A stretch of DNA of 64,000 nt from a virus: positions 38,691 through 102,690 of the IMG/VR virus record IMGVR_UViG_3300037419_001192; one strand, 5' to 3'. A program made the position numbers and the translations under genes. The notes below the pieces were generated by a model that searched no databases, had not been told where the DNA came from, and saw only the letters and a program-made list of their open reading frames with translations. Position 1 is the first letter of the stretch; each line of letters starts with the position of its first letter. Positions 58,368-64,000 of this stretch are shown here, piece by piece.

Positions 58368-58443
58368 TCCGGCAATTGATTGCCAATTGTTCGGGGTGGC
58401 TGCCCCGCCTATAATGGGCCAACAATTTCCACAGGGCAGCCCT

Positions 58444-59280
58444 ATGTTTTCCAAAATCCTGAAGGCGAATCCGCTGCGCCGCATCGTGTTTGCCGATGTG
58501 CTGAAATTCGATCCCCGGCAACCGCGTGATGAGCGAGGCCGCTGGACGCGGGAAGGTGGCGGCAAGAACCTCGATGAACAAGGCAAGGTGCATGCCTTGT
58601 TTTCATCGCAGGCAATGCGACTGCCGAAGATTGCCCATCAACCGTTCCATGACCCGGATACGCTGTATTCTGCTTCCGCAGCCTCGCTGCAATACCTGAA
58701 GCAATGGCTGAATCAAGGCCAAGGCTTGGCGGATCAAATGGGGTACAAGACGATGGCCGGCAGCCCGGATGACGCAATCAAGTCTGGCGAAATGAACCAA
58801 CCCGGAGGCCAGTTGTATATCGCCAAGCTGAAAGACCGGTATGGCCGCGCCGCAACAAAAGTGGCGCAGGATTACAAGGGCGACTGGTCGAAGCTGCTGG
58901 ATGTGACAAGGGCTTCGATAGCAGTGGATAACCTCGACCAAGTGCGGCAAACCATCGATACGCTAACGAAGGGCGGCATGGTGCTGGCGAAGCGTCCGAA
59001 AAACCGTTTCGAGAATCCGACCAATGAGCATTACCGCGATACGCTGCTGAACGTGAAGTTTCCAAACGGCTCAATTGGCGAGATTCAAGTGCATTTAAAG
59101 CCGATGCTGATTGCAAAAGCTGAAGGTCACCCCCATTATGAAGTCATCCGGGGTCTACTCGGCAAGTATGGGGAAACCTCCGACCGCAGCACATGGTCGG
59201 TGGAAGACCAGCAAGCCTTCAACAAGGCCACGGCAGCGTCGCGGGCTCTGTATGACGCGGCATGGAAAAAATCCATCTAA
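58444..59280 (+). CDS. RelA/SpoT-like small alarmone synthetase (toxSAS/Apk-like) with VLK-FDPxQPRDxxGRWT leader
   Basis: LK....A..K..D..LLDVTR..KNRF..YRD..N..GEIQ synthetase motifs. Confidence 0.75.
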   Translation: MFSKILKANPLRRIVFADVLKFDPRQPRDERGRWTREGGGKNLDEQGKVHALFSSQAMRLPKIAHQPFHDPDTLYSASAASLQYLKQWLNQGQGLADQMGYKTMAGSPDDAIKSGEMNQPGGQLYIAKLKDRYGRAATKVAQDYKGDWSKLLDVTRASIAVDNLDQVRQTIDTLTKGGMVLAKRPKNRFENPTNEHYRDTLLNVKFPNGSIGEIQVHLKPMLIAKAEGHPHYEVIRGLLGKYGETSDRSTWSVEDQQAFNKATAASRALYDAAWKKSI

Positions 59281-59289
59281 GGAGGGAGC

Positions 59290-59469
59290 ATGGAGTACAA
59301 ATATTACGAATATGACAATGCCTTCTACCGACGACCAGCATCGGTCAACAATCCGGTGGTAACTGAAGTCAAGACCCCGCTGGGCTGGAAGCCGTATGAC
59401 GGTGACAAAATTGCTCCGGTTTTCTTTGGCGATGAAGTTTCTGCGGAAGATGCCGGCGAAAAATTCTAA
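59290..59469 (+). CDS. 59-aa putative immunity protein (not in ORF track)
   Basis: AAGGAGGG SD. MEYKYYEYDNAFYRRP..GWKPY..GDEVSAEDAGEKF; immediately after the synthetase. Confidence 0.6.
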   Translation: MEYKYYEYDNAFYRRPASVNNPVVTEVKTPLGWKPYDGDKIAPVFFGDEVSAEDAGEKF

Positions 59470-59530
59470 AAGGTTTTGACAAACCACTTAATTGTGATAA
59501 ACTAGGTTCGTCAGGAAAGGAGTCCGACAT

Positions 59531-60061
59531 ATGAACCTAGTGGAAAAAGCAGAAAGATACGCTGCTGAAGCCCACAAACTGCATGTCCGGAAATTTACTG
59601 GCGAGCCGTACATTACCCACCCCGCTGAAGTCGTCGCAATATTGAAAGAATTTGGGGAAGATGATCCGGATGTACTGGCCGCTGGCTGGCTGCATGATGT
59701 GGTGGAAGATTGCCCCGGTTATACGATTGATCGTATCGCTGCCGACTTCAATCCGGAAGTCGCGGCACTGGTCAAGGATGTCACCGGCAACCCAAGGCCA
59801 GCAAAGGAAACGAAGGAAGAAAAATCGATCCGCAAACTCGATGACGCTTACCGGTTAGGCCATGCTGTACCGAAGGCCAAGAATTTGAAAGCTGCCGATA
59901 TGCTATCGAACCTGCGAGCCGCCAAGAATGCCTCGAAAGACTTCCTGAGAGGCTACTTACCCAACAAGGTATTCGTGTTGGGAGCGCTGGGTGCCATCCC
60001 GAACCGGGCGCTATATGAAGCGGTCTGGGGGGAATTGCGGGAAGCCAAGAAGTATTTGTAA
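59531..60061 (+). CDS. HD-domain (p)ppNpp hydrolase (SpoT/Mesh1-like)
   Basis: AH...RK.TGEPYITHP.EV..AAGWLHDVVED..K.AD..SN; own promoter at 59476. Confidence 0.85.
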   Translation: MNLVEKAERYAAEAHKLHVRKFTGEPYITHPAEVVAILKEFGEDDPDVLAAGWLHDVVEDCPGYTIDRIAADFNPEVAALVKDVTGNPRPAKETKEEKSIRKLDDAYRLGHAVPKAKNLKAADMLSNLRAAKNASKDFLRGYLPNKVFVLGALGAIPNRALYEAVWGELREAKKYL

Positions 60062-61345: not shown

Positions 61346-62049
61346 ATGTCCAACCCGCAAGCACGACTATGAATTTCTGGGAAACCACAAGATAGTCAAA
61401 GCCCAGTATGGCCCGAATGGTAGCCGGGTGCAGTTTTCGGTGCGGGCATTCTATAAGTGCCGGAAGTGTGGCAAACAACGGATCGCGGCAGGTAACCCCA
61501 AAGCCCCGTGGCCCCAATTTTAAGGAGTGAACCATGATCCCAGCAATCCTATTGATCACGTTGATGATGTCTCTGTCTGGCGGCTTCGGCAAACTGATTT
61601 CCTATTGCTGGGAAGAAGATTGCCGCTCGATCTTGCCGATGATGCTGATGGGCGCTGCCACGATTGTCGTCGTCTGTGCAGAGCCGATGGGACACGCACT
61701 GGTATTCGTTGCCAGCGGCGGCACAACCGGGGTACTCGCATGAAAGAGAAAATTTTTAATGCATGGCGCTTCTTGCAATTCATCAGCATGACCTTTGCTG
61801 TGATGTGGAAAGCCATACGCGGCGGCTGGTTCGTCTATCGGGACTACCCTGAATGGTTCGTCGTCATGATGAAGGATGGCTACGAGTACAAAGAATCGGT
61901 CAAAGGAAAGCTGGATGACTTTGATATGAACCTGTTGCAGCAGGCACGGGAAGAATTGTCGTTGCGCAATCGTGGCAATCAATTGCCAAGTTGAGCATAG
62001 GAAATAACAGCAGGGAAGCCTATACTGCCTCGAATTACTGGAGGCAAGC

Positions 62050-62337
62050 ATGTTCAAACCGGGCGATATCGTAGTGGGCTGCAATTTCCGTCATGACCGT
62101 GATTTGAATGGCATGCCGGGCATGGTGCTGACAGAAGTGCGGCATCGCTGGATGTTCCACTGGGCCACGAAGACGTTTTCCTGCGAGCCCTGTTGCAAGG
62201 TGGTGTGGGCCGACGATACGACCGATAGGATTGCGCTGCGCTTCTTGCGTCCGCATGATCCGACGCCGGATGACTTGCAATGGGCCAGCTACAAGGTGTT
62301 GCAAGTGACGATGCCTATGCCGCTGCTACCTGAGTAG
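62050..62337 (+). CDS. Hypothetical protein (SH3/KOW-like)
   Basis: MFKPGDIV; GGAGG SD. Confidence 0.5.
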   Translation: MFKPGDIVVGCNFRHDRDLNGMPGMVLTEVRHRWMFHWATKTFSCEPCCKVVWADDTTDRIALRFLRPHDPTPDDLQWASYKVLQVTMPMPLLPE

Positions 62338-62379
62338 TTGCTGTTGGGCTATACTTGGGCGACTTTCTGGAGCCGCCCT

Positions 62380-64000
62380 ATGTTCGCCACCGTACTCAAG
62401 TTCAATTCGCATCACGATCCGAAGGATGGCAAGTTCACCACGGCGGATGGTGCCAAGGTATCGGGTGCGGCCCGCAGCAAACTGCACAGCATGTTCGACC
62501 GCATCGGCCAGCCCGATGGCGGCTTTACTTATCAACCGATGACCGGCAGCGAACCGAGCGCGGGCTATGCGTTATCGATCTATCCGGAGAAGTCATTCGC
62601 CAAACCCGCCGATCAATTGAAATTCAAGGATTTGGTTGATTATTACCTGAAGAACCGCGATGTCTTCAGCCAGCCTGACCATTTCATCGGCGCATGGCAT
62701 GACCCGGCCAGCCACAATGTCTTCCTCGATGTCTCGGTAGTAAAGGATTCGGAGGAAGAAGCAACCAAGCTGGCGCTGGCGCATGACCAGATCGCCTATT
62801 TCGACTTGAAGAATTTCAAGTCGATCACTGTCAACCCGGATGCGAAATCGGGTGTATTGAAAGGAAATCATGGACAAACCGAAACTGGTGCTGGCAAAGC
62901 CGACCGATGCGAAGACATTGGAGACACTGGCGCAACTCTACCGGCAACTGACAGGGCGGGAGCCGACGCCGGAAGAATTGGCGGAAGCGGAGCAGTGGAT
63001 CAAAGATCACCCCTTGCAAAGCAAGGATTATGGCAATCAATTGCCAAAGTCCTGAAGTTCAACAAATACCACGACGACCAAGGCCGCTTTACCACCAAGG
63101 ATGGGGCGGTGCAGCCGGGCCACAAAGCCGTGCCCACCGTCAATGCAATGGCACAGGCGCTCGATAAAGTCGGGCCAGATCAATTCGAGCGCATGGTCAC
63201 CGCACACATGCAGCAAGTCCATGGCGATAAACTTTCCCCGAATGACTACGCGCACGAAATCGAGCGGGTTGCCCGGCAGATACTAGGCCGGCAATCGATT
63301 GCCAGAGTCTTGAAGTTCAACAAATGGCACGACCCGCATACCGGGGAATTCACGTTTGCCGACCATGCTGCATTCAAGGATGCATTGAAAGCGATGGGGC
63401 ATAACCCCGACCAGCACCCGAATATCCTGCAAGCCTCGGTGGCCGGCAAAAAGATTTTTGCGAATGGCGAAAGCCTTGGCATCCCGCGTGGCAACATGCC
63501 GCAAATCCCTGCCGAAGACTACCCGGAATTCTTCAAGAGCCTTGGCGTGGCTGTCACGCGGCATGATGTCGATCCGAATACGCTGAAGCCGACGCAAAGC
63601 GAAATCGATGGCTTCAAAACCGCCAAGCTGTATCAGCAAATCAAACACGGCAGCCACAACAAGACCATCCTTGCTTCCAAGGAAGGCTATATCCTCGATG
63701 GGCATCACCACTGGGCAGCGCATGTGGTGCGCTCGATGACGCATCCGGACGATAAGATTTCCGTTGATGTGATCGACATGGATACGAAGTCGCTGCTGGA
63801 GCGGGCGCATGAGTTCGATAAGGCGCATGGCATCGAATCCAAGGACATCACCAAGCATGACTTTGCTGCAATCTTGAAGGAAGACCCATACCATGACCCA
63901 AAAAACGGACAATTCACTACCGCAGCCGGCGCAGGACATAGCGGAAGCAGCGTATCAGGAAATGGCGGCATCGCACTCCGACCGCAGCAACCCGACGCCC
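62380..64000 (+). CDS. Multidomain polyprotein (3'-partial, absent from ORF track), including a ParB/Srx-like domain
   Basis: GGAG SD, ATG 62380, no stop to window end by manual translation; four (V/I)LK-xxxxHD-x2-3-GxFT repeats; LKPTQ..ILDGHHHWAA. Confidence 0.8.
   Translation, partial: MFATVLKFNSHHDPKDGKFTTADGAKVSGAARSKLHSMFDRIGQPDGGFTYQPMTGSEPSAGYALSIYPEKSFAKPADQLKFKDLVDYYLKNRDVFSQPDHFIGAWHDPASHNVFLDVSVVKDSEEEATKLALAHDQIAYFDLKNFKSITVNPDAKSGVLKGNHGQTETGAGKADRCEDIGDTGATLPATDRAGADAGRIGGSGAVDQRSPLAKQGLWQSIAKVLKFNKYHDDQGRFTTKDGAVQPGHKAVPTVNAMAQALDKVGPDQFERMVTAHMQQVHGDKLSPNDYAHEIERVARQILGRQSIARVLKFNKWHDPHTGEFTFADHAAFKDALKAMGHNPDQHPNILQASVAGKKIFANGESLGIPRGNMPQIPAEDYPEFFKSLGVAVTRHDVDPNTLKPTQSEIDGFKTAKLYQQIKHGSHNKTILASKEGYILDGHHHWAAHVVRSMTHPDDKISVDVIDMDTKSLLERAHEFDKAHGIESKDITKHDFAAILKEDPYHDPKNGQFTTAAGAGHSGSSVSGNGGIALRPQQPDA
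62870..63055 (+). CDS. Small gene nested in the +1 frame of the polyprotein linker
   Basis: AAGGA SD; helical 61-aa product (LAQLYRQLTGREPTPEEL). Confidence 0.55.
   Translation: MDKPKLVLAKPTDAKTLETLAQLYRQLTGREPTPEELAEAEQWIKDHPLQSKDYGNQLPKS

What the first reader, a model, noticed from the sequence alone, without database searches (positions are those of the whole stretch)
62854..63055. Overprinted partner (immunity-like) gene inside the polyprotein linker
Seen: right after domain 1 the polyprotein becomes a low-complexity G/A/D/T linker bounded by two VLK sites. The +1 frame holds a 61-aa ORF with its own AAGGA SD, which stops inside the next VLK codons. Inference: an effector-plus-partner cassette was absorbed into the polyprotein by reading through the partner gene in another frame, keeping both. 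The layout mirrors synthetase plus small gene at 58444-59469.
Basis: partly seen in the sequence, partly recalled or inferred. Interest (0 to 1): 0.7.

Follow-up and report, generated by a model that had tools for sequence, protein, structure and literature searches.

The report
Small gene nested in phage polyprotein
A real, conserved 61-codon gene sits one base out of frame inside the spacer of a multi-domain soil-phage protein, so the same DNA encodes both a floppy linker and a separate small protein that normal annotation misses.

Summary
ATG 62870 to TGA 63053-55 is a 61-codon ORF ("B") in the +1 frame of a 723-aa, four-module phage protein. It has AAGGA four bases upstream, and its stop lies inside the next VLK codons.

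B is a real gene. It follows the phage's codon usage where the polyprotein frame does not. It belongs to an unnamed family of about 50-aa proteins, with 570 clusters at E<=1e-3.

In the loci that have B, it lies after homologues of domain 1 ("A") in four layouts:
- a separate gene, 13 clusters
- partly overlapped, 4
- fused in frame, 1 cluster plus 3 database proteins
- nested in the +1 frame of a long read-through ORF, 11 clusters plus one more with an intervening module

Across nested lineages the B frame is 42% identical and the polyprotein frame 22%.

The "immunity" label is not supported: B is highly conserved, occurs fused to A, and occurs at the N-terminus of other multi-domain proteins. 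I infer a docking or assembly partner, without a direct test.

Openness of the polyprotein frame across B is only weakly improbable. This scan has already noted similar nested genes in other polyvalent genes on other DNA.

The parts
62380..64000 (+). Multi-module ('polyvalent-type') protein gene. It is 723 aa in all and runs over the end of the circularly permuted record.
   Evidence: The ORF starts at ATG 62380 and continues into the first 678 bases of the record (127-bp terminal repeat). Four modules each begin with an (V/I)LKxxxxHDxxGxFT motif, at aa 5, 224, 310 and 498.
62380..62862 (+). Module 1 = domain A, an alpha/beta domain known only from phages, ending ...SITVNPDAKSGVLK
   Evidence: 41 homologues of 88-282 aa. 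AlphaFold model pLDDT 85.5. No solved relative: Foldseek found nothing at E<=1e-3 and the best VIA Z was 3.8. BFVD gave 23 phage proteins at E<=1e-3, including multi-domain proteins of 767-1102 aa. No Pfam, NCBIfam or PADLOC family.
62861..62865 (+). Shine-Dalgarno-like AAGGA, 4 nt before the start codon of B
   Evidence: A purine-rich SD-like run precedes the B start in about 9 of 10 nested lineages, often inside the conserved Ser-Gly-Gly codons at the end of A.
62870..63055 (+). Gene B: 61 codons, +1 frame relative to the polyprotein; product is an extended N-terminus (KPxLxL) plus a two-helix hairpin (LTGRxPTPEE turn)
   Evidence: Codon usage follows this frame. The profile finds 570 representative proteins at E<=1e-3, most of them stand-alone at 46-80 aa. 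There is a single copy in this genome, 74.7 bits. In a natural A-B fusion the B part is modelled at pLDDT 92-97.
62863..63048 (+). Polyprotein spacer (aa 162-223): the out-of-frame reading of gene B, G/A/R/D/T-rich and not conserved
   Evidence: Across 45 pairs of nested lineages the same alignment columns are 42% identical in the B frame and 22% in this frame, and B is higher in 45 of 45 pairs. Composition: G 16%, A 13%, R 11%.
63032..63045 (.). One copy of the genome-wide 14-bp palindrome GGCAATCAATTGCC. It encodes the C-terminal tail of B (GNQLP) and QSIA of the polyprotein.
   Evidence: A second copy at 63290-63303 sits just before the next module motif. Whether it has any role in this locus is unknown.
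63049..64000 (+). Modules 2-4 of the polyprotein: a small helical module, a ParB-like module, and the start of module 4
   Evidence: phrog_2859 matches aa 344-494 (E 2e-25). There is no ATG, GTG or TTG in this frame between 63049 and 63108, so the conserved module-2 leader can only be translated by read-through from upstream.

Best explanation
The 61-codon ORF is a genuine gene (B) with its own translation start, lying entirely inside the gene for a 723-aa multi-module phage protein, one base out of frame. B is an old, widespread small protein of about 50 aa: an extended N-terminus plus a helical hairpin. In other phages it is encoded immediately after domain A as a separate, translationally coupled gene.

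In this lineage the A frame has no stop. It reads through B in the -1 register relative to B and joins A to the next modules. This out-of-frame reading yields an unconserved, glycine/alanine/arginine-rich spacer. One mRNA stretch therefore gives two products: a linker in the polyprotein, and free B made from the internal AAGGA-ATG.

Shown here: the anatomy, the family, the four layouts, and selection on the B frame.

Inferred: B acts by binding domain A, and possibly other polyvalent modules, as a small non-covalent docking or assembly subunit. I rate a partner role at about 0.6. A role in assembly or virion loading is more likely than inhibition (about 0.35 against 0.15), because B is highly conserved, is promiscuously fused, and in the two-gene layout sits just upstream of scaffold or prohead-protease genes.
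For: Reality of the gene:
- Codon usage supports the B frame: +0.28 per codon against -0.17 for the polyprotein frame.
- The B profile finds 570 representative proteins at E<=1e-3, mostly stand-alone at 46-80 aa with the consensus KPxLHL...LYxxLTGRxPTPEExxEA.

Linkage to A. In a survey of 116 loci (67 clusters) chosen by domain A alone:
- B separate: 13 clusters, mostly ATGA-type overlap
- B nested in +1: 11 clusters, with A-frame ORFs of 322-1472 codons running 42-1258 codons past the B stop
- B partly overlapped: 4 clusters
- B fused in frame: 1 cluster, plus the fused proteins P0055, P0060 and P0180
- L054 adds a nested B that lies after an extra module.

Independent translation and selection:
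- Nested B genes start with ATG (GTG in L034) and about 9 of 10 have an SD-like run.
- They score higher against the family profile than non-nested ones, 55 against 40 bits on average.
- Identity is 42% in the B frame and 22% in the polyprotein frame, with B higher in 45 of 45 pairs.
- A B-frame stop lies 3-4 codons before the ATG in the window, L005 and L017.

Function:
- B fusions exist with zincin (P0031, P0106), a ParB-like domain (P0044) and 2xGNAT plus topoisomerase IB (P0124).
- In the separate layout a scaffold-like gene or an HK97-type protease follows.

Sequence reliability: separate assemblies show no indels.
Against: - There is no expression or protein evidence. No RNA run holds the stretch.
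- No binding test was possible because the complex predictor was closed.
- The fusion model gives only pTM 0.62, and no inter-domain error map was available, so A-B contact is not shown.
- Openness of the polyprotein frame across B is only weakly improbable: 0.036-0.14 for this genome, combined P 0.064, and 8 of 18 non-nested B genes have it open too.
- 33 of 67 A clusters have no detectable B. B is also far more widespread than A, so B cannot be specific to A.
- In this phage the gene lies among replication and nucleotide-metabolism genes, not in the head module.
Confidence: 0.6

Rival explanations
1. B is an inhibitor ('immunity' or antitoxin-like protein) that keeps effector domain A silent in the producing cell.
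For: B lies immediately downstream of A with translational coupling. The neighbouring locus at 58387-60061 has a RelA/SpoT-like protein, a small gene and an HD hydrolase, so effector-plus-antidote logic exists in this genome. Polyvalent effectors could harm the phage's own replication if they acted early.
Against: A has no recognisable toxin or enzyme fold or family. B is strongly conserved across phages whose A domains are only 35-40% identical. B is fused in frame to A in four clusters and to the N-terminus of unrelated modules. Half of the A clusters lack B.
Confidence: 0.15
2. B is not initiated on its own. A programmed +1 ribosomal frameshift at the end of A makes an A-B fusion that terminates at 63055, alongside the full-length polyprotein.
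For: Natural in-frame A-B fusions exist (L007/P0172, P0055, P0060, P0180). In all 11 nested clusters B is in the same relative frame, +1.
Against: In the window, L005 and L017 a B-frame stop lies only 3-4 codons before the ATG. This leaves almost no room for a shift site. The sequences there are not conserved between distant lineages. All but one of the nested copies keep an ATG (one has GTG) and most keep an SD. No slippery heptamers were found.
Confidence: 0.07
3. B is a dead relic: the former downstream gene now serves only as linker-coding DNA and is no longer translated.
For: The B family has low T-ending codon use everywhere, so the -1 frame is often open by chance (8 of 18 non-nested). 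A fusion could therefore arise and persist without selection on B.
Against: In 11 nested clusters the B ORF is intact with a start codon. It scores higher against the family profile than free-standing copies (55 against 40 bits). It is twice as conserved as the linker frame. Codon usage follows B.
Confidence: 0.05
4. The polyprotein is not real. The open frame across B is chance, A ends functionally here, and the later modules are expressed in some other way.
For: Openness across B alone is only weakly improbable.
Against: The A frame has no stop for 723 codons. The conserved leader motif of module 2 precedes any ATG, GTG or TTG in its frame. In the nested clusters whose contig reaches the A-frame stop, the A frame continues for 42-1258 codons into further modules. 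BFVD holds multi-domain phage proteins of 767-1102 aa that contain domain A.
Confidence: 0.05

Closest known systems
Phage lambda Rz/Rz1 spanin genes and their equivalents (embedded, overlapped and separated architectures; PMC6139136)
   Same: A small gene lies wholly inside a larger one, on the same strand, in the +1 frame, with its own start. The same gene pair occurs in different phages as separate, overlapped or embedded genes. A one-polypeptide spanin also exists, though it is unrelated in sequence, whereas the A-B fusions here are true in-frame fusions.
   Different: There is no sequence or functional relation. B has no signal peptide, lipobox or cysteine, and A is not a membrane protein. 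Here the host frame across the small gene is an unconserved spacer between domains of a multi-domain protein, not a functional part of the larger protein.
Polyvalent proteins of phages and conjugative elements (Iyer, Burroughs, Anand, de Souza, Aravind 2017; PMC5512222)
   Same: Several unrelated modules sit in one polypeptide, including a ParB-like module, and a RelA/SpoT-like protein with the same leader motif is nearby. Relatives of A lie inside phage proteins of 800-1500 aa.
   Different: At 723 aa this protein is short for the class. No zincin peptidase was detected in it. Searching the text of that paper for 'linker' and 'frameshift' found no occurrence, so it does not appear to describe genes nested in the linkers.
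Virus gene overprinting in general (review PMC8227390)
   Same: Two proteins are read from the same nucleotides in different frames.
   Different: In classical overprinting a new gene is born inside an old one. Here the nested gene is the old, conserved one, and the young, unconstrained frame is the host's linker, created by gene fusion.
MuF-type phage toxin plus immunity gene cassettes
   Same: A small gene sits directly downstream of a phage effector-like module.
   Different: There is no MuF or known toxin domain in A. B is conserved and occurs fused to its partner, which is unlike immunity proteins.

Membership tests
Embedded gene pair of the Rz/Rz1 type (architecture only) | Small gene wholly inside a larger gene, same strand, different frame, with its own SD and start | tested here: met
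   B at 62870-63055 lies in the +1 frame of the ORF that starts at 62380, with AAGGA 4 nt before the ATG.
Embedded gene pair of the Rz/Rz1 type (architecture only) | The same pair is found as separated, overlapped and embedded genes in other phages | tested here: met
   13 separate, 4 partial, 11 nested, 1 fused cluster.
Spanins (Rz/Rz1 proper) | Outer-membrane lipoprotein signal (lipobox Cys) in the embedded product | tested here: not met
   The B sequence has no Cys and no hydrophobic signal.
Polyvalent proteins (Iyer et al. 2017) | Two to fifteen unrelated domains in one polypeptide of a phage or conjugative element | tested here: met
   Four modules with different sequences in a 723-aa phage ORF.
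Polyvalent proteins (Iyer et al. 2017) | Presence of hallmark domains (zincin MPTase, DdrB-like ParB, and others) | tested here: inconclusive
   Module 3 matches phrog_2859 and carries a ParB-like 'ILDGHHHW' stretch, but there is no Pfam hit. No HExxH motif occurs in the 723 aa.
Polyvalent proteins (Iyer et al. 2017) | Packaged in the virion and delivered with the DNA | not testable with these tools
   Needs virion proteomics. The only hint is a weak match of A to an 'internal virion protein' of cyanophage SS120-1.
Toxin/effector-immunity pair | Upstream partner is a recognisable toxin or enzyme | tested here: inconclusive
   No family or solved fold was found for A. Absence of a match does not exclude an enzyme.
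Toxin/effector-immunity pair | Small partner is specific to, and co-varies with, its effector | tested here: not met
   B keeps LTGRxPTPEE across A domains only 35-40% identical. B is also fused to zincin, ParB-like and GNAT-topoisomerase IB proteins.
Programmed ribosomal frameshift site | Conserved slippery sequence at the frame junction | tested here: not met
   No X XXY YYZ heptamer near the B 3' ends. Junction sequences at the 5' end differ between lineages, and a B-frame stop lies 3 codons before the ATG.
Sigma-70 region 3 (Pfam PF04539) | Score above the Pfam gathering threshold over the domain | tested here: not met
   17.9 bits against a cut-off of 25.3, covering 16 residues only. 9 of 79 family members reach E<=0.05.
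Ribbon-helix-helix DNA-binding proteins | Beta strand, helix, G-x-S/T turn, helix; forms a dimer | tested here: inconclusive
   The order of secondary structure is compatible. However, the N-terminal segment is not modelled as a strand, the strand-to-helix loop is long, no RHH family was hit, and no dimer model was possible.

The most novel reading that the evidence does not exclude
Multi-domain 'polyvalent' genes of phages routinely hide independent small genes in their linkers. B would be a widespread docking hairpin that assembles non-covalently with domain A and other modules, for example to load them into the capsid. The pair would switch freely in evolution between separate, overlapped, nested and fused layouts. 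This would define a class of phage genes that gene callers miss by design, and a new small-protein/module interaction.
Probability: 0.3. Interest if true: 0.75.

Novelty: new variant of a known kind. Interest (0 to 1): 0.6.

Why it matters
Same-strand genes wholly nested in another frame are rare in bacteria and phages when backed by good comparative evidence. Here the nested gene belongs to a large, unnamed family (570 clusters). It is found in all four possible layouts with its partner, which gives a natural experiment on how genes fuse and how dual coding arises: an old gene is turned into a linker for a new fusion without being lost.

In practice, gene callers cannot report such genes, so phage small-protein inventories are biased. 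The A-B pair also offers a defined, testable interaction inside the poorly understood polyvalent or internal-protein systems of phages.

Tried and rejected
Family and fold searches:
- No family for B in Pfam, PHROGs, NCBIfam or PADLOC.
- The ESM Atlas gave no usable hit.
- A PDB sequence search with the B profile matched only the short GRxPTxEE turn, in citrate synthase, troponin C and RpoD.
- The resemblance to sigma-70 region 3 is below threshold and seen in 9 of 79 members. I treat it as a shared helix-capping motif.
- Domain A has no solved structural relative.

Database scans that added nothing:
- The degenerate-pattern scan of bacterial genomes returned 120 loci that all match only that motif (sigma-like), with no true B or A.
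- The search for homologous proteins with 'longer' lengths found nothing.
- tblastn of B against isolated phages found no match.

Statistics and signals:
- Stop-codon avoidance in the polyprotein frame is only weakly significant and partly circular. I do not rest the case on it.
- No slippery heptamers.
- No + strand promoter or terminator consensus in 61900-63400.
- The tree of A is poorly resolved. Nesting needs 5 changes on the quick tree, but well-supported branches force only 1.

Expression: no RNA holder is listed, and only contigs could be laid.

Technical points: a first combined alignment (A4) misplaced B and was replaced by A5. The look-up of encoding contigs and complex prediction were closed, so the neighbourhoods of free-standing B genes and A:B binding could not be tested.

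Full report
**What is there.** The window is the last 64 kb of a 102,690-bp virus record with a 127-bp terminal repeat. It comes from soil and rhizosphere metagenomes.

An ORF starts at ATG 62380 and runs over the record's end for 723 codons. It has four modules, each opened by an (V/I)LKxxxxHDxxGxFT motif at aa 5, 224, 310 and 498.

After module 1 (here 'A', 62380-62862) the frame gives GVLK at 62854-62862. It then reads a 62-codon G/A/D/T/R-rich stretch, then VLKFNKYHD from 63049.

In the +1 frame there is:
- a stop at 62858-60
- AAGGA at 62861-65
- ATG at 62870
- 61 codons, then TGA at 63053-55 inside the next VLK codons

**Is the small ORF ('B') a gene?**
- *Codon usage.* Scored against 65 long ORFs of this genome, usage is gene-like in the B frame (+0.28 per codon) and negative in the polyprotein frame (-0.17) over the same bases. 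In A and in module 2 it is the polyprotein frame that scores positive.
- *Family.* A profile of B and four relatives found 570 cluster representatives at E<=1e-3 among 1.84 billion proteins. Nearly all are free-standing proteins of 46-80 aa with the consensus KPxLHL ... LYxxLTGRxPTPEExxEA.
- *Annotation.* No Pfam, PHROG, NCBIfam or PADLOC model covers the family.
- *Sequence reliability.* Two 102,591-base contigs, each assembled from a different run, carry the stretch with no difference or gap, and a third, partial contig agrees over 62694-63400. This excludes a frameshift artefact, though these runs may be the source samples.

**Relation to domain A.** I sampled loci by domain A alone: 116 loci from viral and metagenome contigs, forming 67 clusters at about 90% identity.

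| Layout of B relative to A | Clusters |
|---|---|
| Not detected (mostly distant A clades) | 33 |
| Separate gene, usually ATGA-type stop/start overlap | 13 |
| Nested in the +1 frame of an A-frame ORF that runs on | 11 |
| A frame stops inside B (partial overlap) | 4 |
| Fused in frame to the end of A | 1 |

- In the nested clusters the A-frame ORF is 322-1472 codons long and extends 42-1258 codons beyond the B stop.
- Three more in-frame fusions exist as database proteins: P0055, P0060 and P0180.
- L054 adds a nested B that follows A only after another module.
- Wherever B is nested, it is in the same relative frame.

**Which frame is under selection?**
- Nested B genes keep a start codon (ATG; GTG in L034) and about 9 of 10 keep an SD-like purine run. 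This run often lies in the conserved Ser-Gly-Gly codons that end A.
- They score higher against the family profile than free-standing copies, 55 against 40 bits on average.
- Over the same alignment columns they are 42% identical in the B frame and 22% in the polyprotein frame, with B higher in all 45 pairs.
- The polyprotein reading is G/A/R-rich and unconserved.

So B is the old, constrained gene, and the linker is the young by-product of a fusion. This is the reverse of classical overprinting (PMC8227390).

**A caution on the open frame.** That the polyprotein frame is open across B is not strong evidence by itself.
- For this genome P is 0.036 by synonymous resampling and 0.14 by a within-gene test. 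The combined P over 11 lineages is 0.064.
- B genes in general use few T-ending codons, and 8 of 18 non-nested copies have this frame open too.

The case for a real read-through rests on other points:
- A has no stop codon.
- The module-2 leader precedes any start codon in its frame.
- Long downstream ORFs follow in 11 clusters.
- Large multi-domain phage proteins contain A.

**How B is made.** Independent initiation is the best reading.
- A B-frame stop lies 3-4 codons before the ATG in the window, L005 and L017.
- Junction sequences differ between distant lineages.
- No slippery heptamers occur.
- No + strand promoter or terminator consensus lies nearby, so B is probably translated from the polyprotein mRNA.

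**What B does.** This part is inference.
- In a natural A-B fusion, AlphaFold places an extended N-terminal segment and two helices at pLDDT 92-97. No inter-domain confidence was available, and the complex predictor was closed.
- A is a phage-only alpha/beta domain without a solved relative.
- Adjacency, translational coupling and in-frame fusions argue that A and B work together physically.

Several points count against an immunity role:
- B is highly conserved across A domains that are 35-40% identical.
- B is fused to A.
- B is also the N-terminal domain of zincin, ParB-like and GNAT-topoisomerase IB proteins.
- Half of the A clusters lack B.

In the two-gene layout the pair lies just upstream of a scaffold-like gene or an HK97-type prohead protease. 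A weak relative of A is annotated as an internal virion protein. I therefore favour a small docking or assembly partner, perhaps for virion loading, over an inhibitor, but with low confidence. In this phage the gene lies among replication genes.

**Comparison with known systems.** The architecture parallels lambda Rz/Rz1 and its embedded, overlapped and separated equivalents (PMC6139136), without any homology. The host gene fits the polyvalent-protein concept (PMC5512222). A text search of that paper for 'linker' and 'frameshift' found no occurrence, so it does not appear to describe nested genes.

Earlier notes of this scan report similar small genes nested in linkers of other polyvalent genes on other DNA. 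The phenomenon is therefore recurrent within the scan. I could not tell whether any of those is the same family.

**Verdict.**
- Observation: confirmed.
- Structural interpretation: supported.
- 'Immunity' label: not supported.
- Novelty: a new variant of a known kind (embedded phage genes) involving an undescribed small-protein family.

Noticed in passing
whole window, e.g. 267, 1112, 3172 ... 61974, 63032, 63290: A 14-bp palindrome GGCAAT-YR-ATTGCC occurs 49 times in the 102.6-kb genome, where about 0.2 matches per 64 kb are expected by chance. 17 sites are intergenic although only 13% of the genome is non-coding, and 9 more lie within 40 nt of a gene end. A relative (L005) has a similar GCGCAATTGATTGCGC at the same place, at the end of B. 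It is probably a binding site for a phage DNA-binding protein. Function unknown.
   Followed up: partly
62392, 63049, 63307, 63871; also 58507-58560: The leader motif (V/I)LKFNxxHDxxGxFT, with a variant xHPRxPxGxxGGxF, opens every module of the polyprotein and the neighbouring RelA/SpoT-like protein. It also opens free-standing homologues of domain A in other phages. It looks like a shared tag (processing, packaging or delivery signal) of this protein class.
   Followed up: partly
62845-62865 and equivalent places in L014, L045, L035, L043: The conserved C-terminal '(A/K)TSGG' of domain A is encoded by purine-rich codons (for example TCGGGAGGC) that double as the Shine-Dalgarno sequence of B. 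Part of that protein motif's conservation may therefore be at the RNA level.
   Followed up: partly
58387-60061: A weakly RelA/SpoT-like protein (Pfam E 0.01, below cut-off) carries the same leader motif. It is followed by a non-overlapping 59-aa ORF unrelated to B and by an HD_4 hydrolase (E 3e-18). This is a possible alarmone synthetase / small gene / hydrolase triad, the subject of another note.
   Followed up: partly
B genes in all loci (L005-L120): B genes use T-ending codons at only 7-8%, against 15-19% in the adjacent A domains, in nested and free-standing copies alike. This keeps their -1 frame unusually free of stops and may predispose the gene to being read through.
   Followed up: partly
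L054:4170-4370: In one metagenome contig B is nested in the +1 frame 766 nt after A, behind an extra module and just before a coiled-coil, scaffold-like continuation of the long ORF. B therefore marks the end of a unit and does not always follow A directly.
   Followed up: partly
genome 27644-35428 (outside the window, locus L121): A 2594-codon ORF matches tape-measure, lytic tail protein and 'internal virion protein with endolysin domain' PHROGs. A MuF-like head morphogenesis gene lies at genome 19738-21213. The structural module is thus far from the polyprotein studied here.
   Followed up: no
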